Positions 3,297 through 52,300 of a stretch of DNA of 64,000 bases are shown here, piece by piece (position 1 is the first letter of the stretch; each line of letters begins with the position of its first letter). The stretch lies in assembly GCA_964016885.1 (NCBI GenBank), contig CAXHJY010000114.1:118073-182072 (forward strand), given 5' to 3'. Source of the DNA: Eledone cirrhosa (Eukaryota). Under the pieces are notes generated by a model. That model saw only the letters and a list, made by a program, of their open reading frames with translations. It ran no database searches and was not told the DNA's origin. Made by a program: the position numbers and the translations under genes.

Positions 3297-3320
3297 GTGC
3301 CTTTTCTCTTCACCACCAAC

Positions 3321-31861: not shown

Positions 31862-32251
31862 TTTTGGAGGATGGGAAAGTCGATTAAAGCGACCTAGTAC
31901 GTGACTGTTACTTTATCTTATCGACCCCGTAAGGATGAAAGGCAAAGTTAACTTCGGCAGAGTTTGAAATCAGAACGTAAAGGGCTGTAACTAAATGCCA
32001 CAAAGCATGCTGTCCGAGACATGATAATAATAATAATAATTGTTTCAACTATAGGCACAAAGCTAGCAATTTTTGGGGGAGGGTGAAGTCATTTAAATCG
32101 AACCTAGTGCGTGACTGGTACTTTATTTTATCGATCTCGTAAGGATAATAGGCAAAGTTAAGGTAGGCAGGATTTAAACTCAAAACGTAAAGAGCCGTAA
32201 TTCTAAGCAGCGAAGCATGTTGTCCGACACTCTACCGATACTGCTAATCCA
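31862..32251 (-). mobile_element. Two tandem family-M SINEs separated by an (ATT)n tail
   Basis: Reverse complement of the core at ~31905-31970 and ~32040-32250; (TAA)n at 32024-32040. Confidence 0.75.
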
Positions 32252-34219
32252 CACTTATACTACTACTAATATATAAATATGGGGAATATATATGAAAAAA
32301 AGTTAAAATAGCCTTAGAATGGCGCCCGCAGTTTCAGTTTATCTTGTCGCAATTCAAGATTAAAATATTTTTTTCTGAAAAGACTTTGCTATGATCATCA
32401 TAGCAGCTGTTTCCGTGTTTGAGATTCCTACAATATTACTAAAATACATATATTTGAGCTGTTAGTATATTTGTAGCAATTTCGATACCTGTCCAAGTAA
32501 CTCTGATATAGTATGCATGCTTCTATAAATACTAAATATTGAGATAATGAAGTTATATTTCGTGTCTCAATACATATGAAAGACAAACGTGTTGATAGTA
32601 ATACCAGTATATCATTTTCGACACTTTGTTTGGGATTAACATCACATTGTGGAAATGTCCTTAGTGTGATACTTCACAAGAAGAAGAATTACTACTAGGC
32701 AGTCAAGCTTTCAACAAGAATGATGTTTACAAAATTTCTAATCGCTTTCATACCTCGGTATCTGTGTTAATAAGCAACTGCTGATGATGGATGATTACTA
32801 TCAAATACAAACACCCTTACACCAATACCGAAGGAGCTGAGAGTATAATCACAGTTATAATCACCCTATCACAGCGAGCTTATATGTAAATTTATTATAC
32901 ATAAACATATTGTATACGTGTCCATATACATCTTTATACTGAATCATAGTGTGTTAGTGCTATTGCTAATTAAAAATAAAACGGTGTAAAATACTGCTGT
33001 AGTTCTATTGAGGTGATTGGAGCCAGAGGTTTTAGCTCATCAGTGTATTATTTACAGTGAAAAAATAGCTACTATGCGATATTGCTATGTAATAATTTTG
33101 AGATGTAATATTGAGATGTAATAATTCTTACTTTATAATTCTAATTTTCTTATATTTTACATTTTTTTCGACATTTTAAAATGTTCATCCAATGGCTACT
33201 TGATTGTATTATATCTGGTTACTATACAAGATACATACACCGATCATTTCTACAGATATCTCCTACATTCGCCAGCAAGCAGTCAGTTCCATGTTATTGT
33301 TGCTGTCGTTCTTATCATTTGGCTAAAGCTGATCAATGAAAATGGAATGATTTTACTCACTGCGTTGTGGAGAGACGATAAAAATCTTGGAGTTCTGGTA
33401 ATCGAATTGAATTAAATTACCGCCAATAGAGAGCTTTGAACTACAGATCAAGAATTCTGGTCTCTTCATACCAAAGAAAAATCTCCAAATTAGTATACTT
33501 CTCTAAATATATTTTGCCGGCGTCCTCCTTTACAAGTTTGCTCGGATATCTGATGTAGTATTTTGAGGAAGGAAATACTAATGTAATTGTACAATAGAGA
33601 GTATTATGAAGTGGTTGGGGAACTAAAAATTCTAAATGTCTCTTTACATGACGTGTGAATTGTAAGCATGACGTGTGAATTGTAAGTATAAAATAGTTGT
33701 GAATAAATCAAGGATATCTGATTTATTACCTCTTGAGGCGAAAAAAGTGGATAAACGCTTAGGTAAAGGTGAGTTCGATTCCACAATTATGTATTTTTAC
33801 TGCCTCAAAGGGTTATATCCCCGATCTATTAATGACCTCCAAGTCATTATATTTTGTTAGATTTTGTATGTGTGTTTCTACTGCATCACTTGGTGCATCT
33901 CCATGTCTCTGAGTTGTGTGCAGCATTGTTTTCTTATCGGGACGACGGACGAGAGGGGAATAGAGACGCTTCATGTTAGTAGATCCGTCATGTTTTGCTA
34001 CTTGAAGTTTCTAATGTTATTTTAGTATTTCTTTCGTTGTGGGTTATGTAAGTTATTTTATTGGCTATTAATTTTGTAGAATCTGTGGTGTGTTGTACTA
34101 TGTTATTAGATAATTCTTTTATAGGGTATATTGTGTGTGTGGAAATTGTTTTACTTCAGTTATGCTATTAAATCGATAATATCTTACATGTGGGCTGTAA
34201 TACCATTATTATTATTATA

Positions 34220-34415
34220 GGATTGGCAGTGTCGGTAGAGGGTCTGACGCCATGCTTTGCAGCAAAGAGTTAGGGCCCTTTATGGTCTGAGTTCAAATCC
34301 CGCCGAGGTTCACTTTGCCTTTCATCCTTATGGGGTCGATAAAATAAAGTACCAGTAATACACTGGGTAATTGCTGGCCTTGTGCCAAAAGTAGAAACAA
34401 TTATTATTATTATTA
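34220..34415 (+). mobile_element. SINE family M, full length, flanked by (ATT)n; its tail starts the LINE cluster
   Basis: (ATT)n at 34205-34218 and 34400-34415; A/B boxes and core present. Confidence 0.9.
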
Positions 34416-37400
34416 GTCTGTTCGGACGTCTTTTTGCTCGCTCCCTGTAAGTCGCTTTATTTACCTGTTATAATTATTTGTGGTTTAATTTTTCTTGTTT
34501 TATAAGGAATATAAGCCCATGGTCTTTGCCATGTGAAGGGGAAAGTATAATATTTGGGCCTTTTGGCCCAAATATTTGAACAATATTTGAACATTTTACT
34601 TTTAAAAGATTAACAAAAAACATGGCTGAGGCACGCCCCCCAGCAATATGTCTGCTGTCGTGTGACAACGGCGTAAAAGTTGAGAGGAGGGTTACAAAAA
34701 TTGATACAACAAACACCACCACAAACAACATGAACAAAGACAACAATACTGAGAACACTAATTTTAAAAAACATTACCACACCAACTCCAACAATAACAG
34801 CGAAAACCAAAATACAGACGACAGAAAATAATGCCAACACTGAAAATATAAGTAATAGCAATGTCAATTATTTGGATTTGTCACATAGAAACATGGATTT
34901 CCCGCCATTACCAACGTCTACAGGTATTAAAGCCGCCACCCCCACCACCACAGCAACAACTGAAACAAAAAATAAATTATTTTCTCGTGATATCGAAATG
35001 GATTCTCCGTAAATCGACTCTTCCACGCCGAACGCCACCACTGGCACTACCACCACCACCACCACCACCACTGAAACTAAAAATAATAATAACAAAAATA
35101 ACAATAACAACAACAATAAGAATAACAACAACAACATCAACACTAGCGCAAAACCAAATGTGTCGTTTGCTAAAGCGGCAAACAAAAATGAAACGATTGA
35201 GGTTAGCCGGGAAGAATTGAATGGAGCCAAGCGAATGGTAGAACAATATGGTTACACGGTCAGCCTAACCCCACCAGCTAATACCATGAAGCATCGGCGC
35301 CTATGCAACGTGTCATATCGGACGATAAATATTAAAATGCACCGAGGGGAACGGGCATCCGAGTCCCAGATACAAAAAGCTTTGGGACATGTGTGGGCTC
35401 AAAAATATGGAACCGTGGACGTGTCCTTTGGAACCCCACAGGAAGCCAGAGAGCATTCCATGGCCCTATTAACAAGTGACGAGTTCACACTCGTCCCAAG
35501 CTATTGTGGTCAGAGGCTGGTGAGGAGCAGGGTGATCCAGGTTCCGCCGGCCATTGAAATTCCCTGGTTAATGGCTGCCGTCCTCGCCGACATAGTGGCC
35601 GACACTAAAGTAATTGAGGTGATAAAAGTAAAGCAGGAGAACTGGTCCGGACTGGGATGGAGCTCCTGATCCAAGCGGACCAAAAAAACATACAGGAAGT
35701 TCCGGAGGTGATAGACCTCAATGACGACAGCCACCTCACAGTAATCGTTGATGGTAGAAGGCCTAGGTGTGTGGTTTGTGGCGAAGGAACCCACCTAAAG
35801 GCTGTCTGCCCTCAGGCTAAAAAGTTGAGACCACCTCTCCTACCCACCCTAGTGACTCCACCATCTAAACCAGCAGCAGAAATGGCAGCAACAACTGTAG
35901 CAGCAACAACAGATGCAACTGTTACAGCAACAACCCCAACAACTGTAGCAGCAACAGTAGCAAAACCAACACCACCACCACCCACCGCGCCAGAATTAGC
36001 ACCAGCGCCTCCACCATCCACCACGCCAAAACCAAAACCAACACCCGTGGAGGATTTTCCACTCCCCGACCTGTCACAACCGGAGACAGGCTGTGACGAC
36101 GAGGAGGAGTGGGAAACTGTATCTGGAAAAAAGAAAAAAAAAAGAAACCAAAAAAAAAAAAATCCCCTTCCTTCCCCCTCCAAAAACAAAATGCAGGGCG
36201 AAACAAACAAACAAACAACAAAAAGTGAAGACAGCTATGTCACCACCCACACCAGCATCACCAGCCCCATCACCACAAACACCAACACCATCACCATCTT
36301 TAACCCCAACATCACCATCACCAACACCACAAAAATCACCAACAAGCGAAATAGAAACAAAACCCACAGCAAACGAAAAACAAAACAAAGCAACCAAAAC
36401 GATACACACTACACAGCATTAAATTTGAACACCCAATTACTACACTACATCCAACACAACACCAGCATCACAGAAAAAGACTATACAACACCCCAAAAAT
36501 TCACACCACCCCCACACATACAAATCACTTGCATCACACAGAAAACGTACACGACACTAAAATTAAAATTCCCCAAGGACATCGGGACATCGGAGACTTC
36601 CGACAAACACTCTCCAGGAAGATTTATATAGACATCCTTCCGGAGGGGGCCACAAACAGTGAGAAGGACGGAAACACCATCCTTCCCCCACAAGAAGTGA
36701 GGTAAGTGGGCTTGCCCAACTTTTTCCACTCCTTTTCAACATGACCGCGTGGTCTGGGGTCGTCATGGAAGCAGGGCAACCTGCTCAACGACCTCAGGTC
36801 TCTAAACATAGATGTGGTGGCCATCAACGAGACCAGCAACTCGGCACCTGGAGAGGCAAGTCCATGCCGTCCGACAGCGTCGTGGGGAGCTGGATGGAGC
36901 GACCGGTTAAATTGCTCGGGGTCTGGTTCGGTCCGGACCTCCAGATGGAGAAAAAGTGGAGCGAGGTGACGAGCAGGGTGGCCTCTCTCACCCAAAAATG
37001 GGCCGAGAGGAGGCTGTCTCTGAAAGGTCGGGCGGAGGTGGCGAATGGGTACATTGCGTCCGTCATCTGCTACCACCTGACCGTCGTATTTGCCCCCGCC
37101 CAACTCTGACCAAAATGGAGCATCTTCTCTTCCGCTTTTTGTGGAAGGGACGTTCTCCCATGGTCAGACGATCCATTTGCTGTCAACAACCGTTGCGTGG
37201 AGGACTAGGCATGCCGTGGCTGATGATGCGCAAACATGCGCTGAGGCTACGACTTCTCTGGTGCTTCCTTGACGCTGAACAGATGTGGTCGCCGTTTGCC
37301 AGACGCGCTTTTCTCCAGCTCGTCTCCTTGACAGAGCTGCAATATGGATCAGGAAAAGACCGAGGGATAGCGCTTGGAAGCTGGAATGTCTCCAAGCGCT

Positions 37401-38297
37401 CACGGCCCTCTACCAGCTGGGTACTAGTATCGGTGGAACATCCACCTCGGCGTTCTATAGAGGGCTAGTGGAGGGAAAGACAGACGACGTTCTTGGAGAG
37501 ACCCTGGGCGTCGAAGACGTTCAGCTATTCACTCTCTTCAAGAGAACTTTCAGACCGGGGCCTAAGGACATCTTCCAGAAATCCCTGGCCTGGCAGTGCT
37601 ACCGTGGAGCGTTGCCGGTTTGGGATAAACTCTACAGGCACGGAGGTGCAGTCAGCCGAGATGCGCGCAGGGTGACGAAACTGTCGTGCACGCACTCGTT
37701 CAGTGCCCGAGGATTGGTGACTTGTGGAGCTATGTCGAACAGCTGCTGTAGCATGTAGGACGGATCCGGTTATCGACTGAGTCCATTGTGCAGATAGCCC
37801 CGCCATCCTCCTTTAAAGAGGAGGAAGGGCAGGCAGTTTTCATCTGCCTGGTGGCCATGGCGAAAGAGATTGTGTGGTGGCCAACCCTGATTAACTTTTC
37901 CAAGTTTCACTTGAAGAGGAAAATCAGGGTGGAGAGGTAAGTGCTGTCTTCTAGTAAGCTTGTTGAAAGGTGGGTGAAAGTGGCGAGTGTGGTCCGAGTG
38001 AACGGGCCCGCTATGAGTATGCGCTGTAGACTGAGAAGTGGGAAAAGTGAGAGAAGGCGCTTGCCCTGGTGGTCAGGGTGACCGTGGCCTTTTTGTGTGG
38101 TATTTTGCCAAGAGTGACCCTCGGAGGTTTCCCCCTTTTTGGGGAATTTTTGTTGTTTGAATTTTTTTTAATTTCTAGCCCAATTTTGTTACAACCTGTT
38201 TACACGACCAAAACCTACTTTGTATCGTCCTGTACTCTTCTGTGCCGTCTCTCTAATGTTTTTCTTCGTGTCAGCCCTTGTGGCCAATAAAGAAACC
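34416..38297 (+). mobile_element. Tx1-B: retains the 5'UTR and a frameshifted ORF1 (34622-36705); ORF2 (ATG 36741) lacks ~2 kb of EN/RT
   Basis: VDGRRPRCVVCGEGTHLKAVC. ORF2 jumps at ~36835 from the early endonuclease to QLGTWRG. 3' end CCCTTGTGGCCAATAAAGAAACC followed by (ATT)n. Confidence 0.9.
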
Positions 38298-38311
38298 ATT
38301 ATTATTATTAT

Positions 38312-38375
38312 TAAAATAAAGTACCAGTAATGCACTGGGTAATTGCTGGCCTTGTGCAAAAAGTAGAAACAATTA
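38312..38375 (+). mobile_element. 3' fragment of SINE family M inserted in the Tx1-B (ATT)n tail
   Basis: taaaataaagtaccagtaatgcactgggtaattgctggccttgtgcaaaaagtagaaacaatta. Confidence 0.85.
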
Positions 38376-41300
38376 CAATCACAAGGCAAAGTAAAAAACA
38401 AGAGAAACAGCAGCAGCAGCAGCGACAGCGACAGTGTTAATGATATCAGCAGCAGCTGTCACTGGAACTGTAGTATCAGTAGTGAAAATTATAACGAAAA
38501 ATTTCCTGCGTTACAGAAATCAAACACCACTACCACCCCAATAACAACAATAACAGCAGCAACAACCACAAAGAACTGAAAAAACAACAACTATAACAGC
38601 AGCAACACAGAGGAAACAAACAAAAACACCGGCGACGGCAACAAAGACAAAACTAGTGACGTGTCAACACAAATCAAAACAAACACATCTTTCGCGAAAG
38701 CGACTAACAAGTTTGAGCAAATAAACATCACTAACGAAGAGATAAAACAAGCAAAGGTCTTGGTAAAAAAAAAACGAACACAGAGTAAGTCTCACCCGCC
38801 CAGCTGAGATAATAAGAAACAAACTTTTGTGTTCGGTCAGTTATCGCACGATCGGATCCAAATCGCGGCGAGTTGAACGGGCAACGGAGTTACAGATCCA
38901 AAGAGCTATGGGTGCCGTCTGGGCACAGAAAACATATATAGCCCGGGGATCAAGATATGGCACTGTGGATGTGCTCTTCGCTACACCAGAGGAAGCCGGA
39001 GCACACTCTATTGCACCACTCTGCAGCGACGAAATCACAATGATGCCCACATATTGCGGCCAGAGAGTCGTGAGGGTTCGAGTAGGTCAGGTTCCACCCT
39101 CAGTGGAGATGCCGTGGCTGACGGCAGCCGTCCTCGCTGACGTTGAAGATTCAACAACCATACTCAACGTCATACGAATAAGACAGGAAAATTGGACAGT
39201 GTCGGGGATGGAGCTAATCATCCAAGCAAACCACGAAAACGTTGATGCTATCCCCGATGTAATAGACATGGACGACGGCAGCCATCTACCCGGGACTGTC
39301 GAAGGTAGGCGCCCAAAGTGTCATGGATGCTGTGACAAGACGCACCTTAAGGCATTCTGCCCCAAAATTACCAAAACAGGCACGCGCTCACCCCTTCTCC
39401 CCACGCCGTGCCCCGCAACTGGAGCAGACAAACAATCAAAGAACACAGTGGCAGAAGAGAAATCACCATCCCCAACAACAAAAACACCATCTCTTCTACC
39501 ACCGACAAAACCAATGGGAAGCATACCCCTTCCTGATATAGCCAAATCGGACAAGGAGTGCGATGAGGCCGAAGAGTGGAGGACTATTCCAACAAAAAAA
39601 GATCTCGCCATACGGGCCATCTTCCTGGACCCAGAGGGTAAGCTGGTGGTGCTGGACGTGACCAGCGGAGACGGGCAAGCTTTCAGGCTAGTGGCCGTCT
39701 ATGCCCCAACAGGAGCAGGGCGGCCTGATTTCTTCCGGCGTCTGGAGACCTTTCTTGGAACGTCCCGCTCTTTAGTGTTAGTGGGCGACTGGAACGGGAT
39801 CTTAGACGCACACTGGGACTGTGTGGGATTCGCGGATAGGGGTGGAGGGTGCAAGAGTCTCACCAACCTGCTCAGGCGTTTTGAACTGTCTGACAGGTAC
39901 CGAATGGATTTCCCGAATGTGCCAATGTGGACTTGGACAAACCGCATAGGGTCACCCAGATCATATCTAGATAGAGTATTTTGTAGGGAAATAGATAGGT
40001 CTAGCATAGGCTGACCAAAATTCAAGATAGTCAGCTACACGGACCACAAATTCGTGATCTGTGTGCTTGACTTAGATAGGCTTCATAGACGAGGACCCGG
40101 CTACTGGAAGCTAAACGCGTCCTTACCAGCGTGCAAGGCCTACAGAGACCAGATTAGCGAACTAGTTAAGCGGGCGTTGACGGGGGCCATCGTCAACAAC
40201 AAGTGGTGGTTTGCTCTGAAAAGAGCGATTAGAATAGAATCCATTAGGTTTAGTAAGGCTTTAGCAATAGAGAAAAATAGAGCAGAGAACTAGTTAGAAA
40301 ATTAGACGAGGCGCTTAGCAGAGGCATTGCGACCGACGTGCTTGCGGCGAAATTGGCCCTTGACCAATTCTTCAATGCAAAGCACGAAGGCTGCGTTGTC
40401 AGAGCAAGAGTGCGTGCTCTCAGACACGAGGGAACGAAAGCCGTTCAATGGGCTCGAGTGGCGGAGGCGCGTCGTGGCAACAAAGCCACGATCCGGTCTT
40501 TGGTGGACCACGACGGGCGCATGCTACTCGATCCCGGGAAAATGCGTGAAGCTTTTCAGCGACACTTCGCTCAGCTGTTCGGGGGCAGCGGTGGGCCGGG
40601 TCGAGGGATGGACTTTAGTGTCTACCTCAACGGACTGCCGCGGCTCTCGGCCACTGAGGCGAAGTGTTGCGAACAGCCGATAACAGCCGCTGAAGTAAGG
40701 GAGGCAATGACTGGCTGCCCAAGGGGTAAATCGCCTGGTTAGGATGGTCTACCCTATGAACTTTACGTACAGATGCCAGACTTGTTCGGAGGCCTCTTGG
40801 CGGACGTCTACTGAAACTGGCAACAGAACGGGAGAATTCCCAGTTCTGTGAGCCGAGGAGCGGTGGCACTGCTGAGAAAGGATCCGAACAAGGGGGATAA
40901 CATAGATAATTTTAGGCTCATAACTCTGCTAAACACAGAGTTCAAGATTTTGGCCAAGGTGCTAGCAAAGAGGTTGGCGCTTGTCGTTGGTGGTCTAGTG
41001 GGAGAGGCACAGACATGCGCCATTCCCGACAGATCCATCCACGACAACCTCCCCTCATGCGATACATCGTAGAGAGGGTAGCTAGGGAACCTGGCAAGGG
41101 TGGGTCTTTGATCAATTTAGATCAATCGAAAGCCTTCGATAGGGTCGACCATCGTTACCTAGCGGCAGTCCTGAGGGCGGCTGGCTTTGGGCCCGTCTTC
41201 AGAGGCTGGATCGCTGCCATGCACAGCGACATCTGCTCTGTAGTGGGAGTGAACGGTCACATGTTGGAACCGTTCAACATCATGCGCTCGGTCCGCCAAG

Positions 41301-43011
41301 GATGTCCCCTCTCGTCCCTATTGTACGTATTGACTCTCGAGCCATTACTGCACAAACTGGAGACGTTGAGGGGCGTCCCGCGCGAACTAGGATGCGGAAG
41401 ATCCGTGTCAGCATAATCCGACGATGTCACCGTAGTGGTGTCGAACGCCAAACACATCGAGGCGATCGGCACTACACTAAGAGAATACGAAGCGGTGACA
41501 GGAGCAATGATCAACCAGGAAAAGTCAGTGGGCCTGCAGCTCGGCACCTGGAGAGGCAGGTCCATGCCGTCCAACAGCGTCGTCGGGCGCTGGACGGACG
41601 GACCGGTTAAATTGCTAGGAGTCTGGTTCGGTCCAGACCTCCAGACGAACAAAAACTGGGACGAGGTGACCAGCAGGGTGGCTTCTCTCATCCAGAAATG
41701 GGCCGAGAGGAAGCTATCCCTGAAAGGTCGAGCGGAGGTGGCGAATGCGTACATCGCATCCGTCATCTACTACCGCCTGACCGTCGTACCTTGTCCTAAG
41801 CCCTGGAGCGTTTGCTGTTTCGCTTCTTGTGGAAGGGACGCGCTCCGATGGTCAGGCGTTCCATCTGCTGTCAACACCCGCTACGTGGAGGGCTGGGCAT
41901 GCCGTGGCTGATGATGCGCAGACACGCGCTCAGGCTACGACATCTCCACCTCTTCCTCGACGGTGATCAGGTGTGGTCGCCGTTTGCTAGACGCGTTTTT
42001 CCCCAGCTCGTCTCCTTGACGGAGCTGCAGTCCTGGGTCAAGCGAAGACCGAGAGGGAGCGCTTGGAGACTGGAATATCTTCAGGCGCTCACAGCCCTCG
42101 ACCAATCGGGCAATGTGATCGGTGGAAACTCCACCTTGGCGTTCTATAGGGGATTAGTGGAGGGGAAGAGCGACGACGTACCTGGAGAAACTCTAGGCGT
42201 CGACGAAAATCAACTAGCCAATCTCTTCGGAAGGACTTTCGGGCCGGGGCCTATGGACAACTTCCAGAAATCCCTGGCCTGGCAGTGCTACCGAGGAGCT
42301 TTGCCAGTTCGGGATAAACTCTACAGGCATGGAGGTGCCGTCAGCCGGGCATGTCCGAGATGCGCGCAGGGCGACGAAACCGTCCTGCACGCACTCGTCC
42401 AGTGTGCGAGCATTGCTGACTTGTGGGTTTATGTCGAACACCTGCTGTCACGTGTAGGACGGATCCAGCTATCAGCTGAGTCCATCGTGAGGATTGCCCC
42501 GCCCCCTTCCTTTAGCCGGGAAGGGCAGGCAGTTTTTATCTGTCTGGTGGCCATGGCGAAAGAGATAGTATGGTGGACACGTTTGAAAGGGCTGAAGACG
42601 AGCACTTACCTCTTCGGTGATGCCCTGATTAACTTTTTCAAATTTCATTTGAAAAGGAAAATCAGGGTAGAGAGGGAAGTGCTCTCTTCCCAGCATTTTG
42701 TTGAAAGATGGGTGAGAGAAGCAAGTATGGCCCGAATGAATGGGCCTTCTCTGAGTATGTGTCTGTAAATTAAAGGTGGAAAACTGGGAGAGGACACTTG
42801 CCCTGGTGGTCAGGGCCACTGTGGTCTTTTAATGGGCTTTCTCCACAAATGTCCCTCGGAAGTCTCCCCCCTATTGGGGAATTTTTCTTTGTTATTTTAT
42901 TTCAACCTCCGTTTTTTTTACACGCAGAAATGCCCATTTGTACCGTCCTGTATTGTCCTGTACTGTCCTTAATGTCTACTTTATGTAAACCCTTGTGGTT
43001 AATAAAGAAAA

Positions 43012-43012
<1 letters not shown>
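38376..43012 (+). mobile_element. Tx1-C: 5'-truncated and degenerate; a deletion at ~39600 fuses ORF1 to the EN domain; ORF2 ends at 42768
   Basis: VEGRRPKCHGC..HLKAFC followed directly by DLAIRAIFLDPEG; several stops; tail (TTA)n 43013-43060. Confidence 0.9.
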
Positions 43013-43060
<48 letters not shown>

Positions 43061-46000
43061 GGTTGGTGAAGCCACGCTTCTTATCGCCTCCAGTCTTTTT
43101 CAACGTTTTACCTCTTTTTCAACCGTTCTAAACCTTTTATTCAAGTTTTAAATTTGATAAAAGTTTAGAAGAATTGACCCACCTAATACAGGGGTTCACT
43201 AGTAAATAATACGGCACCCCTTTACGGGGTGTCGTATTCGTATTTGTGTAAAAATATTTTTTGAAAAATTTCAACATGGATAACACAAAAGAGAGAGAGA
43301 GCGCTGTCAGACAACACAGAGAGAGGGAGACTTTATCAGCATGTCAACAAGACAGCGTTCCAGCGGAGGTAAATATAAACGAAAATATTACAAAGGAAAA
43401 AAAGATTGTTACAGATTTAAAATTAACAAATATTTCTAACACAAACAACACCAACAATAACACCAACAACATCACCAACAACAACACCAAAAATAACAGC
43501 GGTAAAGTCGAGAACGACAATAACAAAAATAACAGCGGTAAAGTCGAGAACGACAATAACAAAAATAACAGCGGTAAGGTCGAGAACGACAATAACAGAA
43601 ATAACAGCGGTAAGGTCGAGAACGACAATAACAATGACAATAACAACAGCCACAACAACAATAATAGTAGGAACAGTATCAACAAAAACAACAATAATAA
43701 CAACAGCCACAATAACAGTAACATCAGCAACAGTATCAACGAAAACAACACCAACAACTGTACCAGCGAAAAGAACAACAATGATACCGATACCTGTAAT
43801 AGCGACCTCAGCACCACCAGTAAGACCAGTAGCGGCAGCAATAGTGGTGCTGCTGAAAAAGGGACCACTTCTTTTGCAGGTGTCGCCCGAAATATCGAGA
43901 CAGTGTTAGTCACAGAGGAGGAGATGGCAGTCGCAAGGGCCATGGTGACAAGAAGCGCAAATAGAGTTTCCCTGAAACCTCCACCCGATTTTTTCAAGGA
44001 TCAGCAGCTACGAACGGTAACTTACCGCACCGTCAGCAAAATCTCACATCGAGTGGAGAGAGCCACGGAGGCTCAAATCCAAAAGGCCTTGGGGTGCGTC
44101 TGGGCACACAAAACCCACATCACCCGAGGCAGAAAGTACACCACAGTAGACGTACTTTTCGCCACCCCCAGGAAGCAAAGTCTCACTCTTTGGAAACCCT
44201 AAAGAGTGAGGAGTTAGTCTTGGTGCCCTCCTACTGCGGGCAGAAAATTGTGAGGGTCAAAGTGACCCAGGTCCCACGCGACGTGCCCATACCTTGGCTA
44301 GCCGCGTCTGTCCTTGCTGGAATTGAGAACAGGGCGACCATGCTGCAAGTAGAAAAAATAGGGAGAGAGAACTGGTCAGGTATAGGCATGCAAATGCTTA
44401 TACAAACTGACCAAGAATGTATCGAGGCTATCCCCGATATCATAGACTTTGAGGAAGGACTCCAACTCCCTATAAGTGTAGAAGGAAGACGGCCAAAATG
44501 TTATCTCTGTGGGTCGAAAGGTCATCTCAGGGCCTTTTGCCCGCAGAAGACACCGAAGAGGCCCTCTCTCCTTCCAATACCTGGTCCGCTGCTACCAAGA
44601 GCAGGACAGGCAACAAACGAAGAAGCCCCTTCCACGGTGAGTAGGAGGGCAACGTCCGTAGCACCCGTACCAAGGCCACGGATAACTAAAGCAGCATCAT
44701 CAGTAGCGGCAACACCAATAGCTACATTTGAAATAGCTACACCAGCAACAACATTGCCGAAGAGGGTTCCACTACCACCACCAACAGCCGTGGAGCACAT
44801 ACCCCTCCCAGACGCCACAGAATCCGACATGGTGTTTGAGGCGGGAGTGACGTGGCAAACAGTCTGCCACAAAAAAGAAAAAAGAAAAAAAACCCTTAGA
44901 TTCACCCTCCAAAAGCGAAGGCATACAAAGAGGGGTAAAGGCAGCAAGGAAACTTGCAGCAACACCACCACAAACACCAACAACGCAAACACAACAAGAC
45001 ACACACACCAAACAGCAACAAGAAGAAAACGGCAACAAAATCACCCCTCCCCCCAAAAAGTACACAGCCATAAACATAGCAAAAAAAGAACTCATAAAAT
45101 ATATAAAGCAGCACACAGACATCACGGAAAAAAATTACTACACCCCACCAACACCAAGAACTCTCCCGACAAACATAAGCATCATCGAAATATCATTAGA
45201 ACAATACAAACCTTTAAAACAAAAATTCCCCAACGCAGTTGGAGACTTCAGAGGGACGATTACCAAGAGGATATACACTGACATCCTCTTGGAAACACCC
45301 ATGACCAGCGAAAGGGACGGTTCTACTGTCCCTCACCACACGAACAAGGTAAGTGACCCTTTCTCATCCAACATAGCTGCACTCAGAATAGGCAGTATAA
45401 ATGCACGTGGCCTGGGGTCATCTTGGAAGCAGGGTCACCTGCTCAATGACCTCAGGTCACTAAACATAGATGTGGTGGCTATCAGTGAAACCAGAATCTC
45501 CGAGGTACGGGCCTTCGCACCGATCTTCGGTGGCTACGATGTATACGCATCTCCCAGCCGTCCAGGATCGGGGGGAGGGGTTGCCGTCCTTTTTCAGAGA
45601 GGCTTGGATCTCGCGATACGGGCCATCTTCCTGGACCCAGAAGGTAAGTCGGTGGTGCTGGACGTGACCGGCAGCGAAGGCAATGCTTTCAGGCTAGTAG
45701 CCGTCTACGCCCCAACAGGGGCAGGGCGGCCAGATTTCTTCAGACGTCTAGAGACCTTTCTTGGAACGTCCCGATCGTTAGTGTTAGTGGGCGACTGGAA
45801 CGGTATCTTGGATGCACGCTGGGATTGTGTGGGGCTAGTGGATAGGGGAGGAGGGTGCAAGAGCCTCACCAACCTGCTCAGACGTTTTGAACTGTCTGAC
45901 AGGTATCGACTGGATCACCCGAATGTGCTAATGTGGACATGGACAAACCGCATCGGGTCATCCAGATCGTATCTAGATAGGGTGTTCTGCAGGGAACTAG

Positions 46001-49000
46001 ATAAGGCTAGTATAAGTTGTCCACAATTTAAAATAGTCGACTACACAGACCACAAATTTGTGATCTGTGAGATCGACATAGACAGACTTCATAGACAAGG
46101 GCCTGGTTACTGGAAGCTGAACGCGTCTTTCCCGGCGCGCAAGGCCTACAGAGACCGGATTAGCGTATTAGTTAAGCGGGCGTTGACGGGAGCGGTCGTC
46201 AACAACAGGTGGTGGTTCGCCCTGAAAAGGGCAATTAAAGTAGAGTCGATTAGGTTTAGCAAAGGAGTAGTGATAGAGGAAAATAGAGTAGAGGGAGAGC
46301 TAGTCAGAAAGCTAGAAGAGGCGTTTAGGACAGGCATCGCAACCGACGTGCTTGCGGCGAGATTGGCACTCGACCAATTCTTCAACGCAAAACACGAAGG
46401 CTGCGTTGTCAGAGCTAGAGCGCGTGCTCTGAAGCACGAGAGGACAAAAGCCGTCCAATGGGCCCGGGTGGCAGAGGCGCGACGTGGCAATAAAGCCACA
46501 ATTCGGTCTTTGTCTGACCAAAACGGGTGCGTGATGCTCGAACCCGAGCGGATGTGTGAAGCTTTTCAGCAGCACTTTGCTGAACTGTTCGGGAGCGGCG
46601 GCGGCCCGGATCGGGACATGGACTTCAGTGCATACCTCGACGGACTGCCTCGGCTCTCGACGACCGCAGCAGTGTTGCGAAAAGCCAATAACAGCCGGTG
46701 AAATACGGGAAGCGATGGCTAACTGCACAAGAGGTAAATCGCCAGGTTTAAATGGTCTGCCCTACGAGCTTTATGCATTTATGCCAGACTTGTTCGGTGA
46801 CCTCTTGGCAGACGTCTACTGCAACTGGCAGCAGAACGGGAGCATTCCCAGTTTTGTGAGCCGGGGAGCAGTGGCGCTGCTGAGAAAAGACCTGAACAAG
46901 GGGGATGTTATTGATAATTTCAGGCCCATAACTCTGTTAAACGCAGAGTTCAAGATTTTGGCCAAGGTGTTAGCAACGAGGTTGGCGCTTGTCGTCAAGG
47001 GTCTGGTGGGAGAGGCGCAGACATGCGCCATCCCGGACAGATCCATACGCGACAACCTCCACCTCATGCGATACATCATAGAGAGGGTGGTTAAGGAACC
47101 TGGAAAGGGTGGGGCCCTGATCAACTTGGATCAATCCAAAGCATTCGATAGGGTCGACCATCGGTACCTGGCGCCGGTCCTCGAGGCAGCCGGTTTCGGG
47201 CCCGTTTTCAGGCGTTGGATCGCAGCAATGTACAGCGACATCTGCTCAGTTGTGAAGGTGAACGGTCACCTATCGCTGCCGTTCAGCATCATGCGCTCAG
47301 TCCGCCAGGGTTGTCCCCTCTCGTCCCTCTTGTACGTATTGGCTCTCGAGCCGTTACTTCACAAACTGGGGGCGATGAGGGGCGTCCCACGCGAACTAGG
47401 ATGCGGGAAATCCGAGTCGGCTTACGCTGACGACGTCACCGTGGTGGTGTCGAGCACCAGACACTTCCAGATGCTCGGCACCGCTCTCAAGGAATACGAA
47501 ACGGTGACAGGAGCAAAGATAATCCAGGAAAAGTCGGTGGGCTTGCAGCTAGGCACCTGGAGAGGCAAGTCCATGCCGTCCGACAGCGTCGTGGGGCGTT
47601 GGACGGACGGTCCGGTTAAATTGCTCGGGGTCTGGTTCGGACCAAACCTCCAGATGGAGAAAAACTGGAACGAGGTGACGAGCAGGGTGGCCTCCCTCAC
47701 CGAGAAATGGGCTGAGAGGAAGCTGTCCCTGAAAGGCCGGGCGGAAGTGGCGAATGCGTACATCACATCCGTCATCTGCTATCGCCTCACCGTCGTCCCT
47801 TGCTCCAACCCAACTCTCACCAAAATGGAGCGCCTCCTCTTCCGCTTTTTGTGGAAGGGACGCGCTCCCATGGTCAGACGATCCATCTGCTGTCAACACC
47901 CGCTGCGTGGAGGACTGGGCATGCCATGGCTGATGATGCGCAAACATGCGCTGAGGCTGCGACATCTCTGGTGCTTCCTTGATGGTGAACAGGTGTGGTC
48001 GCCGTTCGCCAGGCACGTTTTCCCACAGCTCGTCTCTTGACGGAGCTGCAGTCCTGGGTCAGAAAAGACCGAGGGATAGCGCTTGGAAACTGGAATGTCT
48101 CCAGGCGCTCACTGCTCTCTGCCAGCTGGGCACCAGTATCGGTGGAACATCCACCTCGGCGTTCCATAGAGGACTAGTAGAGGGGAAGAGCGACGACATT
48201 CTCGGAGCGATCCTGGGCGTCGAAGAAGATCAGCTGCTTGCTCTCTTCAGGAGAAATTTCAGCCCAGGGCCTATGGATAACTTCCAAAACTCCCTGGCCC
48301 GGCAGTGCTACCGGGGAGCGCTGCCGGTTCGAGATAAGCTCTACAGGCACGGAAGTGCCGTCAGCCGAGCCTGTCCGAGAAGCACAGAGAGACGAAACCG
48401 TCGTGCACGCACTCGTTCAGTACCCGAGCATTTCTGACTTGTGGAGCTATGTCGAACAGTTGCTGTCGCGTGTAGGACTGATCCAGTTGTCGACTGAGTC
48501 CATTGGGCAGATGGTCTCGCCGTCTTCCTTCGAGGAGGAAGAGCAGGCGGTTTTCATCTGCCTGGTGGCCATGGCGAAAGAGATTGTGTGGTGGACAAGG
48601 TTAAAAGGGTTAAAGACAGACACTTTCCTCTTCGGCGAATCACTAATTAACTTTTTCAAGTTTCACTTGAAGAGGAAAATCAGGGTGGAGAGGCAAGTGC
48701 TGCCTTCTAGCAAGTTTGTTGAAAGGTGGGTAAATATGGCGAGAATGGTCCGAGTGAAGGGGACCGCTCTGAATATACGCCTGCAATTTGAGAGATGGAA
48801 AAATTGAGAGAGGGCGCTTGCCCTGGTGGTCAGGGTGACCGTGGTCTTTTGTGTGGTTTTCGCCACGAGTAACCCTCGGAGGTTTCCCCGCTATTGGGGA
48901 ATTTTTCATTGTTTCAATTTTCATTTTATTGTTTATATATATGTTTCTATTTCCTTTTTTTCTTTTCTTATATAAATAATAAAAATATTTACACGCACAA

Positions 49001-49073
49001 AACCCACATCGTACCGTCTTGTGCCGTCTGTAATGTTTTTCTTGATGTCAGCCCTTGTGGCCAATAAAGAAAT
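43061..49073 (+). mobile_element. Tx1-D: full-length but frameshifted (ORF1 ATG 43276 to ~45352; ORF2 ~45373-48807, start mutated to ATA)
   Basis: CYLCGSKGHLRAFC; INARGL, SETR, GDWN and TDH; YADD; 3'UTR followed by (ATT)n. Confidence 0.92.
43492..43632 (+). repeat. 36-nt coding tandem repeat x4 (NNSGKVENDNNK) in Tx1-D ORF1
   Basis: Read directly. Confidence 0.9.
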
Positions 49074-49085
49074 CATTATTATTGT

Positions 49086-49114: not shown

Positions 49115-49120
49115 ATTATT

Positions 49121-49266
49121 CCCCCCTATTGGGGAATTTTTCTTTGTTATTTTATTTAAACCTCTGTTTTTTTTACACGCAGAAATGCCCATTTGTACCG
49201 TGCTGTATTGTCCTGTACTGTCCTTAATGTCTACTTTATGTGAACCCTTGTGGTTAATAAAGAAAA

Positions 49267-49268
<2 letters not shown>
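49121..49268 (+). mobile_element. Tx1 3'UTR-only insertion (Tx1-C family) with (TTA)n tail 49268-49337
   Basis: Nearly identical to ~42866-43012. Confidence 0.9.
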
Positions 49269-49330
<62 letters not shown>

Positions 49331-49337
49331 GTTATTA

Positions 49338-52300
49338 CTCTTTGAGTCTCAGCCATTGATGTTAGTTAACTGGAAAGTTTGTTGAAATTAATATCAAGCC
49401 ACTACCTGCAGCCTCAGATATTCAGGACGTATCGGAGGGTTCTTGCTGTTCCCAGCAAGCATGCCTTTTGAAGCGTTCCAAAAAGCGTGAAGGGGCCAAT
49501 TTTCTTTAATCGTCGCTGGAAACTTTTTGAGATAGTATCTAGTGCGCCTATGACAATCGGGACCACTTTGACTTCATGGCAGTTCCAAATCCTTTTTACC
49601 TCCCACTTTAAGTCCTGGCATCGGTTAATTTTCTCCCTCTCCTTCTCTTGCACTCTCGTGTCGAATGGGCAGGCCACATCCACAATCAGGCACGATCTTT
49701 TTTCCTTGTCCAAAACCACTAGGTCAGGTCTATTGTGTTCCAGTTTCTTGTCCGTCTGTATCCTAAAATCCCACAGCACCTTCACCTGATCGTTTTCTAT
49801 CACCGACTCTGGCTTATGCTCATACCACTTCTCAGAATGTGGTGAATTGTTTACTTTGCATAGGTGCCAGTGGATCACCCTGCCCATCACATCATGTCTC
49901 CAGCCTTTATAGTGAGTCTGGGCTAGGTGTTTACACTCGGATACAATGTGAGCTACAGTCTTCTCTCTCTCTCCACAGATCCTGCACAGTGGGCTAGCCT
50001 CCCCCTTGTAAATATGGTGTTTCAACCACTTCGTTTTAAGAGCCTGCTCTTGCGCAGCCATTAGCATTCCTTCTGTAGCCTTTTTAAGGTCTCCTCTTTT
50101 CAACCAGTTCCATGTCTGTGGATCTCTGAATTCAGTTTTCTCAAAGAAGGTACTACGAAGGGATTTTTCATGAAGGCTGCTCTTTCTCCTTGTTGTTATT
50201 TCCTCCTTGGACATCCCCTGGTCTATTGTCCTCTCCTTCAGTACAGTTCTGAGCATTGGCTCCTTACTATCAGTCGCGTATTTGTGTAGGTTGTTTTTCT
50301 CCATCTGAACACAATCCTCTATGCTGATAAGACCTCTTCCACCTTCAGATCTCCTTAAGTAGAGTCTATCGACATCACTCCTCTTGTGGAACATGTTGTA
50401 GATAGTCAATAGTTTCCTTGTCTTTCTATCCATTTCTTTTTGTTCAGCAACATTCCATCTCAGAATTCCCGCACTGTACCTAATAATAGACAGCTCGGGA
50501 ATTTACTGCACTTATGGCATTCCTACTGTTCAGATGTGACTTTAATACGCTCCTTACTCTGCTAATGTATTCAGATTTTATCAATTCCTTCATTTTTTTG
50601 TTCTTGATGTCATCGGCATCCAGAACACCCAAATACTTGTATCCTTCCTCAGAGTCAATTTCCTTTATCATCTCACCTGTGGTACCTGGATTCCATTGCT
50701 TCTGCTCAATTTACCCCTCTTCATCACAAGGATTCCACACTTACTAATACCAAATTGCATACATATATCATTGCTGAAAATACGGACAGTGTCAACAAGC
50801 ACATCCAACTCCTCACTCTTCCCGAAGAGCTTCAGATCGTCCATGAAGAGGAGGTGATTGTTGGTAAGCTCTCCCTTTCCCAACTTGTATCCTGCTCTCA
50901 CTTTTCGCAGTATAATGGTCAGGGGCATCAGGGCAAGGACAAACAACAGAGGGGACAGACTATCTCCCTGGAAGATACCTCTCTTGATCTTCACGCCTCC
51001 CAAGGATTCTCAAGGGCTTCATACTTTTGCCCAACAACTGTCTGATGTTATCTGCCACCTTGAAGATCTCTAGGCTTTTGGTGATCCAAGAATGAGGCAC
51101 CATGTCAAATGCCTTTTTGTAGTCTATCCATCCCATGACAAGACCAGTGTGTCTCCTCTTGCAATTCCTCATTACCATCTTATCAATAAGTAACTGGTCC
51201 TTTGTACCACGGGACTTCTTTCGGCATCCTTTCTGTTCGTCCGGTAACAAGTTGTTTGTGTGGAGGTAATGGTAGATTTCCTCAGACATAATGCTTGTCA
51301 ACAGTTTCCACATTACGGACAGACATGTGATAGGTCTATAGTTGGTAACATCATTACCCTTGATTCGGTCTTTCATTACCAGAACTGTGGTACCTTTTGT
51401 CAACCACTCTGGTACCTCACCTGACATCAAGCAGTCATTTGAACATGGTTGTCAGTTTCGGGTGGAGGGATGTTATATTTTTAATCCAGTACCCCTGCAC
51501 ACCATCTGGGCCTGGTGATTTCCAGTCGGTTAGTTTTTGGCCTGCCCCTTAAGAGTTTCAACTGTGATACTCAAAACAGCCTGTTGGTGTGCCTGTTCAC
51601 TAATCTCCTTTTGTACTGTCTCAATCCACACTGCCTGGTCATTATGTTTAACATCCTGCTCCCATATTCCTCTTCAGAATGTCTTAGTTTGCTCCGCCTC
51701 AGGGATCAAGTCGTTGTCTCTTTCTTTCCCTTCAATCTGTCCAAACAACATCTTCCGGTTGTTGTCAAACATGCGGTTCTGTCTATACTGACTGACTCTG
51801 CTCTCGTATCGTCTAATTTTTGCACTCTTTGCTACAATGCGTTGCTTCAGTTCCTCTATGATAATATTTAGCTTTTTCCTCCTAGTTTTGTACTTTATTT
51901 CCAGTCTATTTTTAGTGTCTATGTTTTTTAGTGTCCCATTCAGTAGGGACTCAAGCTTTCCAATGTCATTTCTCATTTCCCTGATTTGACCATTCAGTCG
52001 TTTCTTCCACCAAGGTTCTGATCTTTCTTGTTTGTTGTTTCCTCTCGCTTTTATGCCAAGTAATTTCCACACCGCATTTGCTGTTGCTTTGAGGATATTG
52101 TTGCACTGGTGAAGGCTCCTCGCCTCAAGGTATGGGATGACTTTGTTTACCTTAGCTGTTGTTACTTTTAACTCTTTCCTGTCTACAAATCTTAGGTTCA
52201 TAGGTTTCTCACTATCATTGTTCAATTCATCTACCACTAAGTTTAGGATATCAACCATGTCCTAGCCCGTCAGCATTCATCTCCTCAATGGCCGTATCTC

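What the first reader, a model, noticed from the sequence alone, without database searches (positions are those of the whole stretch)
34371..34415. SINE family M 3' end mimics the Tx1 3' end: candidate Tx1-mobilised, microsatellite-targeted SINE
Seen: the SINE tail GCCTTGTG-CCAAAAGTAGAAACAATTATT (the copy at 14890-14918 ends ...AGAAACCATTATT) aligns with the Tx1-B end CCCTTGTGGCCAATAA-AGAAACCATTATT (38275-38303). SINE copies sit in (ATT)n, stack head-to-tail in each other's tails (14620-15478, 31862-32251), and one lies in the Tx1-B tail in the same orientation as Tx1. Established: SINEs borrow the 3' tail of their partner LINE, usually CR1, L2 or RTE; I know of few sequence-sharing partnerships with Tx1. 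Inference: the (TTA)-targeting Tx1 mobilises this SINE, and SINE tails seed new LINE landing pads.
Basis: partly seen in the sequence, partly recalled or inferred. Interest (0 to 1): 0.75.

Follow-up and report, generated by a model that had tools for sequence, protein, structure and literature searches.

The report
Octopod SINE borrows site-specific LINE tail
An abundant short retrotransposon (SINE) in this cephalopod-like genome ends in the same 22-base hairpin-plus-AGAAAC module, and lands at the same ATTAT sites on the same strand, as a family of microsatellite-targeting L1/Tx1-like LINEs, so it is likely copied by their machinery.

Summary
The tail resemblance is real. The SINE end (34377-34399) and the LINE end (38275-38297) match at 16 of 22 ungapped bases. 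No masked genome window (0 of 60,000) and no shuffle (0 of 20,000) reached the end-anchored score.

Both ends carry a 3-4 bp hairpin with a CTTGT loop, the same spacing and AGAAAC. The SINE keeps the hairpin through a C-G to G-C flip.

Both elements join the genome at ATTAT on the same strand. In 600 kb of random genome, 63 of 75 SINE ends are followed by ATTAT (background 0.26% per position). SINE target-site duplications (median 15 bp) start with (A)ATTA in 45 of 50 cases. All 58 full-length LINE 5' ends examined abut ATT runs, and about 22 of these runs are SINE tails.

Two corrections apply. The SINE needs only Y|ATTAT, not a long microsatellite: 12 of 65 SINE ends have 3 or more ATT units, against 14 of 22 LINE ends. 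The LINE is L1-like (APE, RT, zf-RVT; collinear with human ORF2p) and site-specific, but its Tx1 clade label could not be tested.

Two other LINE families use the same repeat on the opposite strand and share no tail with the SINE. Trans-mobilisation remains an inference. This is a new variant of a known kind; SINEU/Tx1-Mar is the precedent.

The parts
34219..34399 (+). Full-length SINE copy (short-tail type). It has a Pol III-like head with a B-box-like GAGTTCAAATCC, a central block AAAATAAAGTACCAG, and a tail ending AGAAACA.
   Evidence: 133 BLAST hits in 664 kb.
34375..34399 (+). SINE terminal module: hairpin TGGC-CTTGT-GCCA (34375-34387), a 5-nt spacer, AGAAAC (34393-34398), then A.
34203..34218 (+). 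5' flank (ATT)n, the upstream copy of the TSD of the SINE at 34219.
   Evidence: 15-nt match to the 3' flank.
34400..34414 (+). (ATT)5 at the SINE 3' junction. It also serves as the landing pad for the 5' end of LINE-B.
34415..38297 (+). LINE-B. This copy is internally deleted: the ORF2 match jumps from residue 58 to residue 735. It ends GCC-CTTGT-GGC...AGAAACC.
   Evidence: undeleted genome copies are 5.85-6.0 kb.
38274..38297 (+). LINE-B terminal module: hairpin GCC-CTTGT-GGC (38274-38284), AGAAAC (38291-38296), then C.
38298..38312 (+). (ATT)5 behind LINE-B.
38312..38375 (+). 5'-truncated SINE (64 bp) inserted in the LINE-B tail, in the same orientation.
38380..43012 (+). LINE-C ((ATT)-type subfamily). 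It ends AACC-CTTGT-GGTT AATAAAGAAAAC and is followed by an (ATT)16 run at 43013-43060. The 5' start is approximate.
43061..49074 (+). LINE-D, a young (ATT)-type subfamily. It begins directly behind the ATT run of LINE-C.
   Evidence: The 5' ends of 29 genome copies differ pairwise by 0.9%.
49120..49262 (+). 5'-truncated LINE-C-type fragment followed by (ATT)n.
1304..7021 (+). LINE-A, an (ATCT)-targeting subfamily of the same LINE family. ORF1 is 1518-3296 with a CCHC knuckle. ORF2 is 3297-6758 with APE, RT and zf-RVT. It is flanked by (TATC)n at 1263-1302 and by (ATCT)n from 7024. The 5' start is approximate.
14620..15478 (+). Stack of five same-strand SINE copies or fragments, of long-tail and short-tail types. 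The copy at 14950-15136 has the TSD ATTATTAATATTCAAATT.
31862..32251 (-). Two stacked SINE copies.
49330..52805 (-). A different LINE family (RT only weakly similar, no APE domain found by Pfam). Its 3' end ...GACTCAAAGAG is followed by (TAA)n, so it lies on the opposite strand of the same repeat. This is the rival partner that was rejected.
53720..57063 (-). A third LINE family (RT, no APE found). It ends ...GCAAGATAAATGCAA plus (TAA)n. A second copy lies at 58545-60817 (-).

Best explanation
The SINE shares its last ~22 bases and its ATTAT insertion site with the (ATT)n-targeting subfamilies of an L1/Tx1-like LINE family, and is therefore likely mobilised in trans by their ORF2 protein.

Shown from sequence:
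- Both elements end in a small hairpin with a CTTGT loop. The stem is N-GCC/GGC-N in the LINEs and T-GGC/GCC-A in the SINE.
- In both, a 9-nt A-rich stretch follows the stem and runs into AGAAAC, then one base, then ATTAT.
- Both are joined to the genome at ATTAT on the same strand.
- SINE TSDs are about 15 bp and begin at ATTAT, with a pyrimidine at position -1.

Inferred mechanism:
1. The LINE ORF2p would bind the hairpin/AGAAAC module of SINE RNA. This is 'stringent'-type recognition, as in eel UnaL2/UnaSINE1.
2. Its APE endonuclease would nick the bottom strand opposite Y|ATTAT.
3. The freed ...ATAAT-3' end would pair with the AUUAU at the RNA 3' end and prime reverse transcription.
4. Second-strand cleavage about 15 bp downstream would produce the TSD.

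The SINE tolerates a bare ATTAT, whereas the LINE is mostly found in longer ATT runs. Each new SINE or LINE copy leaves an ATT-containing tail that is reused as a landing site. This reuse explains the head-to-tail stacks and the LINE arrays.
For: - Tail similarity: score 10-11 against 0 of 60,000 masked genome windows and 0 of 20,000 shuffles. Identity is 16 of 22 ungapped.
- Hairpin across 13 subfamily representatives: the inner 3 pairs are paired in 39 of 39 cells. Three of 4 pairs show changes on both sides. The covariation score is 0.474 against 0.161 in shuffles (0 of 500 reach it), and all slid controls are at or below 0.125.
- Junction: 63 of 75 CORE-bearing SINE 3' ends in 600 kb of random genome are followed by ATTAT within 0-2 nt. 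Background is 0.0026 per position.
- TSDs: found in 50 of 83 full-length copies, median 15 bp (range 9-24). 45 of 50 start (A)ATTA, and position -1 is C or T in 44 of 50.
- LINE targets: 58 of 58 genome copies of full-length LINE-B and LINE-D 5' ends are directly preceded by an ATT run. 22 of 51 LINE tails in unbiased loci are followed by ATTA.
- Two 5'-truncated LINE copies have TSDs that also start with ATTAT: L108 (about 19 bp) and L029 (12-14 bp).
- The LINE family has other subfamilies with other targets ((ATCT)n, (TA)n, (TC)n). The SINE's terminal bases match only the ATT type.
- No other repeat in 664 kb carries the SINE tail.
- Ages overlap. Mean pairwise distance is 0.110 for the SINE, 0.091 for the LINE-C 3'UTR and 0.044-0.054 for LINE-B.
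- The LINE is abundant: its 3'UTR motif occurs 13,483 times against 1 for the reversed control.
- ORF2 has APE, RT and zf-RVT domains and is collinear with human L1 ORF2p (E = 5e-48).
Against: - The shared block is short (about 22 nt plus ATTAT). blastn-short did not report it, and LINE-C scores poorly against the short-tail SINE (score 2).
- The hairpin covariation rests on about 2 independent compensatory events in the 3 inner pairs. The 13 rows were picked as subfamily representatives.
- The MFE fold of the SINE tail alone does not choose this hairpin and is no better than shuffles (z = 0.14).
- Site breadth differs. Three or more ATT units follow 14 of 22 LINE tails but only 12 of 65 SINE tails (p = 2.4e-4). 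Full-length LINE 5' ends always abut ATT runs, whereas SINE TSDs run into unique sequence.
- Tails of the CR1, L2 and RTE families of this genome were not catalogued.
- The Tx1 clade is untested.
- A tRNA origin of the head was not confirmed: ARAGORN found 0 genes and Rfam had no tRNA match at E <= 1.
- There is no experimental or RNA evidence.
Confidence: 0.75

Rival explanations
1. The SINE is mobilised by a different, uncatalogued LINE (CR1, L2, RTE or other) that also ends near ATT repeats. Under this view the resemblance to the L1/Tx1-like tail is convergence in A/T-rich ends.
For: Octopus genomes hold active CR1, RTE and Dong-R4 families besides L1-Tx1 (passages of PMC13282606). CR1 and RTE are the usual SINE partners (passages of PMC3747384). 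I did not survey their tails. The shared block is short.
Against: In 664 kb, every match to the SINE tail lacking a SINE body was either a 5'-truncated SINE or an L1/Tx1-like LINE tail. Tail similarity has p < 2e-5 per comparison. Spacing is the same, the hairpin is kept by a compensatory flip, and the nick-site motif and strand are the same.
Confidence: 0.1
2. The partners are the LINE families that end in (TAA)n. Two are in the window. They have no APE domain by Pfam and are probably Dong/R4-like restriction-like-endonuclease elements (that label is recalled, not tested). They use the same ATT/TAA repeat.
For: They are abundant, with up to 15 copies of the 3' part among the fetched loci. They sit in the same repeats as the SINE and the L1/Tx1-like LINE. 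Dong-R4 is the most active LINE group in Octopus vulgaris.
Against: They read (TAA)n after their 3' end, so they lie on the opposite strand. None of 108 SINE/LINE-type tails in random genome is followed by TAATA, AATAA or ATAAT. Their tails score 3 and -4 against the SINE tail, which is null level.
Confidence: 0.04
3. ATT is not a target at all. It is the elements' own 3' repeat, made by RT slippage as with the TAA repeats of the I factor or the TGTAA repeats of UnaL2. Under this view insertion sites are essentially random, and the stacking reflects A/T-rich preference only.
For: Many LINEs end in their own short repeats (PMC3747384 passages). LINE tails are often followed by long ATT runs, which could be carried along.
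Against: The upstream (target-derived) TSD copy of the SINE starts with (A)ATTA in 45 of 50 cases. 58 of 58 LINE 5' ends abut ATT runs. Sister subfamilies are flanked on both sides by other repeats; for example LINE-A has (TATC)n at 1263-1302 and (ATCT)n from 7024.
Confidence: 0.06

Closest known systems
SINEU / Tx1-Mar of crocodilians (Kojima 2015, PMC4494074; passages and section 16 read)
   Same: A SINE inferred to be mobilised by target-specific Tx1-type LINEs because both show the same target preference. SINE and LINE copies are found nested at the same sites.
   Different: SINEU has snRNA-derived heads and poly(A) tails, and its target is a Mariner transposon. The partnership there was argued from shared targets and shared 5' heads, not from a shared 3' tail. 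Here the head is Pol III/tRNA-like, there is no poly(A), a 22-nt 3' module is shared, and the target is a 5-nt ATTAT / (ATT)n site.
Kibi and Koshi, microsatellite-specific Tx1-clade LINEs of teleosts (Kojima and Fujiwara 2004, as summarised in PMC4494074)
   Same: APE-encoding LINEs inserted specifically into microsatellites, flanked on both sides by the repeat and forming arrays.
   Different: Their targets are (TC)n and (TTC)n. No partner SINE is mentioned in the passages I read. The family here has split into (ATT), (ATCT), (TA) and (TC) subfamilies. Clade membership is untested here.
Stringent-type SINE/LINE pairs with a 3' stem-loop: eel UnaSINE1/UnaL2, and monocot L1 with ZmSINE (Ohshima 2013 review, PMC3747384, passages)
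   Same: A shared 3'-terminal sequence, a small hairpin kept by compensatory changes, a conserved loop and 3' flank, and terminal short repeats used for priming.
   Different: Those partners are L2 or plant L1 and are not site-specific. The shared tails are 50-100 nt, against about 22 nt here.
CORE-SINEs, including octopus OR2 (Ohshima and Okada 1994, cited in PMC4758252). 'tRNA-Core' SINEs dominate octopus SINE content (PMC8967140).
   Same: The layout of head, conserved central block and exchangeable LINE-derived tail. The central block here (TTTCATCCTTACGGGGTCGATAAAATAAAGTACC) looks CORE-like to me, from recall.
   Different: Membership was not tested because no reference sequence was available. 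Known CORE-SINE partners are L2, L3/CR1 and RTE (start of Table 1 of PMC3747384), not an L1/Tx1-like element.

Membership tests
SINE with a LINE-derived 3' tail (stringent-type SINE/LINE pair) | 3'-terminal sequence shared with the partner LINE, beyond chance | tested here: met
   16 of 22 ungapped. End-anchored score 10-11 against 0 of 60,000 masked windows and 0 of 20,000 shuffles.
SINE with a LINE-derived 3' tail (stringent-type SINE/LINE pair) | Same terminal repeat or junction and same insertion signature (TSD, 5' truncation) as the LINE | tested here: met
   ATTAT follows 63 of 75 SINE ends and ATTA follows 22 of 51 LINE tails. SINE TSDs have a median of 15 bp and start (A)ATTA in 45 of 50. 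Two LINE TSDs also start ATTAT. One truncated copy is 38312-38375. The LINE TSD sample is very small.
SINE with a LINE-derived 3' tail (stringent-type SINE/LINE pair) | Internal Pol III promoter head derived from tRNA, 7SL or 5S | tested here: inconclusive
   A B-box-like GAGTTCAAATCC is visible by eye. ARAGORN found 0 tRNAs and Rfam gave no tRNA match at E <= 1.
SINE with a LINE-derived 3' tail (stringent-type SINE/LINE pair) | Mobilisation by the LINE proteins in trans | not testable with these tools
   This needs a retrotransposition assay.
Tx1 clade of non-LTR retrotransposons | RT domain groups with Tx1 references in a phylogeny (RTclass1-type test) | not testable with these tools
   No named Tx1 reference could be obtained. 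120 listed homologues, 10 clusters and the Atlas carry no clade names.
Tx1 clade of non-LTR retrotransposons | L1-type architecture: ORF1, and ORF2 with N-terminal APE, RT and a C-terminal zinc motif | tested here: met
   Pfam finds Exo_endo_phos, RVT_1 and zf-RVT. ORF2 is collinear with human L1 ORF2p, residues 12-864 (E = 5e-48). A CCHC knuckle in ORF1 is seen by eye, with only a weak Pfam hit (E = 0.051). These features do not separate Tx1 from L1.
Tx1 clade of non-LTR retrotransposons | Target-sequence-specific insertion | tested here: met
   58 of 58 5' junctions lie on ATT runs. Sister subfamilies lie in (ATCT)n, (TA)n and (TC)n.
SINEU-like (Tx1-Mar-mobilised) SINEs | snRNA-derived head and poly(A) tail | tested here: not met
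   The head has no U1/U2 match in Rfam. The tail is AGAAAC(A/C)+ATTAT with no poly(A). It works like SINEU (shared target with a Tx1-type LINE) but is not a member.
CORE-SINE superfamily | Conserved ~65-nt CORE domain | not tested
   Resemblance is from recall only, with no reference sequence at hand. The literature places tRNA-Core SINEs and OR2 in octopus.
Partner of (TAA)n-ending (Dong/R4-like) LINEs | Same strand of the repeat and a shared tail | tested here: not met
   0 of 108 tails are followed by the TAA strand. Tail scores are 3 and -4.

The most novel reading that the evidence does not exclude
The dominant SINE of an octopod genome is a sequence-specific SINE. It hijacks a microsatellite-specific Tx1-type LINE through a 22-nt hairpin/AGAAAC module that it keeps by compensatory change. 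It relaxes the site requirement from (ATT)n to a bare Y|ATTAT. Its own tails then become ATT seeds that the LINE and further SINEs reuse. This would be a self-reinforcing SINE-LINE-microsatellite cycle that helped drive the octopus-specific SINE expansion.
Probability: 0.4. Interest if true: 0.72.

Novelty: new variant of a known kind. Interest (0 to 1): 0.55.

Why it matters
SINEs are about a tenth of octopus genomes (11.6% in O. vulgaris, PMC13282606 passages). In four full-text searches I found no paper that names their LINE partner.

If this pairing holds, it identifies the engine of that expansion. It would also add a tail-sharing SINE to the Tx1-type LINEs. The 58-pair survey in Ohshima's review shows no Tx1 partner in the parts I could see. 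The one later case I found, SINEU, rests on shared targets and heads, not tails.

The pairing also gives a compact, testable recognition element: a 13-nt hairpin, AGAAAC and AUUAU. It shows how a non-autonomous element can widen the site range of a site-specific LINE.

Tried and rejected
- Naming the LINE clade failed. The 120 listed homologues carried only 'hypothetical protein' names (best named hit Argonauta hians, 62%). Ten cluster look-ups and the protein Atlas gave no clade names, so 'Tx1' stays unverified.
- The tRNA origin of the head was not confirmed. ARAGORN and Rfam at E <= 1 gave nothing. There was one insignificant lncRNA hit (E = 0.89).
- blastn-short with the SINE tails did not report the LINE tails. 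The similarity only shows in end-anchored global alignment.
- An apparent SINE variant followed by (ATCT)n (7 'TATCT' cases) turned out to be LINE tails caught by my fuzzy pattern. I found no SINE with a non-ATT end.
- Delimiting LINE TSDs failed. In the 20 fetched LINE-B regions, both flanks of the copies whose tails were found are ATT runs, so no TSD could be delimited. The automatic search gave 4 candidates, of which only L029 is convincing. L108 was seen by eye.
- Single-sequence folding gave mixed results. The LINE tails fold into the hairpin (z = -0.6 to -2.0), but the SINE tail's MFE is a different fold and no better than shuffles.
- Pfam gave no clade-defining domain for the (TAA)n-ending LINEs.
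- The search of earlier findings returned nothing.
- The Octopus bimaculoides genome paper is not held.

Full report
WHAT IS THERE.

The window is G000:C141:118073-182072 of a 3.0-Gb assembly. The best named relative of its LINE protein is from the octopod Argonauta hians (62% identity). The repeat content matches what is published for octopuses.

The finding lies at the 3' end of a ~181-bp SINE copy (34219-34399). With this copy as query there are 16 matches in the window. There are 133 matches in 664 kb (the window plus 600 kb of randomly chosen genome). That is roughly 200 per Mb. By extrapolation, which is inference, the genome holds some 6x10^5 copies or fragments.

There are two tail types. 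The short type ends ...TAATTGCTGGCCTTGTGCC(A/T)AAAGTAGAAACA. The long type has an extra ~45 nt and ends ...TTGGCCTTGTGCCTAAATCAGAAACC.

The head has a B-box-like GAGTTCAAATCC. ARAGORN and Rfam do not call a tRNA. The central block looks CORE-like to me, but this is recall and was not tested. The literature says tRNA-Core SINEs dominate octopus SINE content and that octopus OR2 is a CORE-SINE (passages).

THE LINE.

The window holds five copies or fragments of one LINE family. LINE-A (about 1304-7021) has open ORF1 and ORF2. ORF2 carries Exo_endo_phos, RVT_1 and zf-RVT domains and aligns collinearly with human L1 ORF2p over residues 12-864 (E = 5e-48). It is therefore an L1-superfamily element, not an RLE-type one.

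I could not test the Tx1 clade, because no named reference was reachable. Indirectly, octopus annotations list their L1-like families as 'L1-Tx1'. Target specificity is a noted trait of many Tx1-clade elements (passages of PMC4494074 and PMC4640811).

The family is abundant. A conserved 16-nt 3'UTR motif occurs 13,483 times, against 1 for the reversed control.

All subfamilies end in ...CC-CTTGT-GG..AATAAAGAAA. They differ in what follows:
- (ATT)n for B, C, D and the L107 type.
- (ATCT)n for A and relatives.
- (TA)n and (TC)n in a few.

Among 51 tails in unbiased loci, 22 are ATT type, 26 ATCT, 1 TA and 2 unclear (examples). LINE-A is flanked by (TATC)n upstream and (ATCT)n downstream.

For the ATT type, every one of the 58 genome copies of full-length 5' ends examined is directly preceded by an ATT run (29 LINE-B and 29 LINE-D). 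In the window, B, C, D and a fragment form a head-to-tail array in ATT runs. This is the behaviour of a microsatellite-specific LINE.

IS THE TAIL RESEMBLANCE REAL?

Yes. The last 30 nt before ATTAT were aligned with free 5' ends. The SINE scores 10-11 against LINE-B, 9 against LINE-D and 6-10 against LINE-A. LINE-C scores 9 with the long tail but only 2 with the short tail. Sixty thousand repeat-masked genome windows gave a mean of about -4.5, sd 3 and maximum 9. Twenty thousand shuffles never reached 10.

An earlier null was contaminated by SINE copies and was discarded.

Ungapped, SINE and LINE-B agree at 16 of 22 positions: CCTTGTG, then 3 of 8, then AGAAAC. blastn-short does not report the match, so the shared block is short.

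A SHARED HAIRPIN.

The block contains a stem with a CTTGT loop:
- (A)GCC/GGC(C) in B and D.
- GGCC/GGCC in the L107 type.
- AACC/GGTT in C.
- TGCC/GGCA in A (loop CTAGT).
- TGGC/GCCA in the SINE.

The commonest natural 27-mers were tabulated. One of each of 13 variants was aligned (A1). The three inner pairs are paired in 39 of 39 cells, and three of four pairs show changes on both sides. The covariation score is 0.474 against 0.161 for shuffles (0 of 500 reach it). Slid controls are all at or below 0.125.

The independent events are few: G-C to A-U in C, C-G to G-C in the SINE, and variation in the outer pair. The rows were chosen as representatives, so this is suggestive rather than proof.

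Single-sequence folds recover the hairpin in three LINE tails but not in the SINE tail.

The distance from the stem to the junction is identical, 13 nt, in LINE and SINE.

SAME SITE, SAME STRAND.

In the 600-kb random sample, 75 SINE 3' ends have the central block upstream. Of these, 63 are followed by ATTAT within 0-2 nt and 2 more by ATTA. Most of the 10 others are one-base variants. The background frequency of ATTAT is 0.0026 per position.

Of 83 full-length copies, 50 have a recognisable TSD of 9-24 bp (median 15). It starts ATTAT in 29, AATTA in 12 and TTATT in 3, with one CATTA, so 45 of 50 begin at ATTA. The base before it is C or T in 44 of 50.

The upstream TSD copy is target DNA. The site is therefore Y|ATTAT, followed by any sequence.

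Two 5'-truncated LINE copies have TSDs of the same kind: L108 with ATTATTT(T)ACTAAGAAGAA (seen) and L029. I could not delimit more, because both flanks of full-length LINEs are ATT runs.

WHERE SINE AND LINE DIFFER.

Three or more ATT units follow 14 of 22 LINE tails but only 12 of 65 SINE tails (Fisher p = 2.4e-4). In the window, only 1 of 8 short-type SINE ends is in such a run. The SINE is thus ATTAT-targeted rather than microsatellite-targeted.

Possible reasons, none tested:
- The LINE RNA carries a long (AUU)n.
- The LINE needs a longer repeat for 5' joining.
- Retention differs between the two.

RIVALS.

Two further LINE families in the window also sit in this repeat. They are at about 49330-52805 (-), and at 53720-57063 (-) with a second copy at 58545-60817 (-). 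They have RT but no APE by Pfam. They read (TAA)n after their ends, so they lie on the other strand (another example is L074).

No SINE-type tail is followed by the TAA strand (0 of 108). Their tails score 3 and -4 against the SINE. I think they are Dong/R4-like, but that is recall only.

In 664 kb I saw no other repeat that carries the SINE tail.

AGES.

Mean pairwise distances:
- SINE short type, random sample: 0.110 (n = 37).
- LINE-C-type 3'UTRs, unbiased loci: 0.091 (n = 14).
- ATCT types: 0.166 (n = 12).
- Top-hit sets, which are biased young: LINE-B 0.044-0.054, SINE 0.069, LINE-D 5' ends 0.009.

The activity periods therefore overlap.

LANDING PADS.

Reading the 58 LINE 5' junctions by eye, I count 22 on the tail of a SINE and 13 on the tail of another LINE. 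A stricter automatic classifier gave 18 and 6 of 57. In random genome, 17 of 90 strand-specific (ATT)>=3 tracts are SINE tails and 4 are LINE tails.

Several LINE-B 3' ends are followed, after the ATT run, by a SINE head in the same orientation (L004, L006, L008, L011).

The reuse of tails as sites is therefore real.

MECHANISM (inferred).

The model is stringent-type recognition of the hairpin/AGAAAC module by the LINE ORF2p, a nick opposite Y|ATTAT, priming by pairing of ...ATAAT-3' with the AUUAU of the RNA, and a second nick about 15 bp away.

COMPARISON AND NOVELTY.

SINE/LINE tail sharing is textbook. A SINE riding a target-specific Tx1-type LINE has one precedent that I found, SINEU/Tx1-Mar. 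That case was argued from shared targets and shared 5' heads, and SINEU has poly(A) tails (PMC4494074).

In the passages of Ohshima's review that I saw, including the start of its Table 1 of 58 pairs, 'Tx1' occurs only outside the table.

Four full-text searches found no paper naming the partner of octopus SINEs. Supplements and subscription papers (Ohshima and Okada 1994; Kojima and Fujiwara 2004; Repbase Reports) were not seen and may bear on this.

I rate the finding a new variant of a known kind, with interest 0.55.

Noticed in passing
window 1263-7290; loci L064, L069, L088, L094, L105, L117; L201-L230: One LINE family has split into subfamilies that each sit in a different simple repeat: (ATT)n, (ATCT)n, (TA)n and (TC)n. 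The conserved hairpin-AATAAAGAAA end is kept, and only the last 1-3 bases differ to match the repeat. This is a natural series for studying how target choice evolves.
   Followed up: partly
window 49262-49345, 53700-53790, 58530-58600 (minus strand); L074: Two other LINE families (RT, no APE domain found) end in (TAA)n. They occupy the same ATT/TAA repeats as the L1/Tx1-like LINE but in the opposite orientation, so both strands of one microsatellite are used by different LINE lineages.
   Followed up: partly
window 43061-49074; loci L152-L180: The LINE-D subfamily is very young. The 5' ends of 29 genome copies differ pairwise by only 0.9% and are 98-99% identical to the window copy.
   Followed up: partly
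window 36748-36864 / 36837: The window's LINE-B copy has an internal deletion that removes most of ORF2; the protein match jumps from residue 58 to residue 735. Undeleted genome copies of the same subfamily are 5.85-6.0 kb.
   Followed up: partly
G000:C26:2953966-2954609 (locus L043): The first ~70 nt of the SINE head appear as eight or more tandem repeats, spaced 82 bp apart, directly upstream of a full SINE copy. This looks like a small satellite born from the SINE head.
   Followed up: no
window 61030-61310: A ~280-bp repeat with sharp boundaries. Fourteen hits among the fetched loci end at its right edge. It was not classified.
   Followed up: no
locus L091:4900-5400: A tandem satellite with a unit of about 35 bp (TTTTAAACAACATTGCAAGCCCACTGAAAGAG...) lies next to a short LINE ORF2 fragment.
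   Followed up: no
window 1700-1830 (ORF1 of LINE-A): ORF1 begins with a long Asn-rich low-complexity stretch (N/D/T runs). Similar AAC/AAT-rich stretches lie in the 5' parts of LINE-C and LINE-D.
   Followed up: no
window 15019-15162: The central SINE block gives a weak, insignificant Rfam hit to a human lncRNA region (TP53TG1_1, E = 0.89). This could reflect a MIR/CORE-like piece in that model, but it is not evidence.
   Followed up: no
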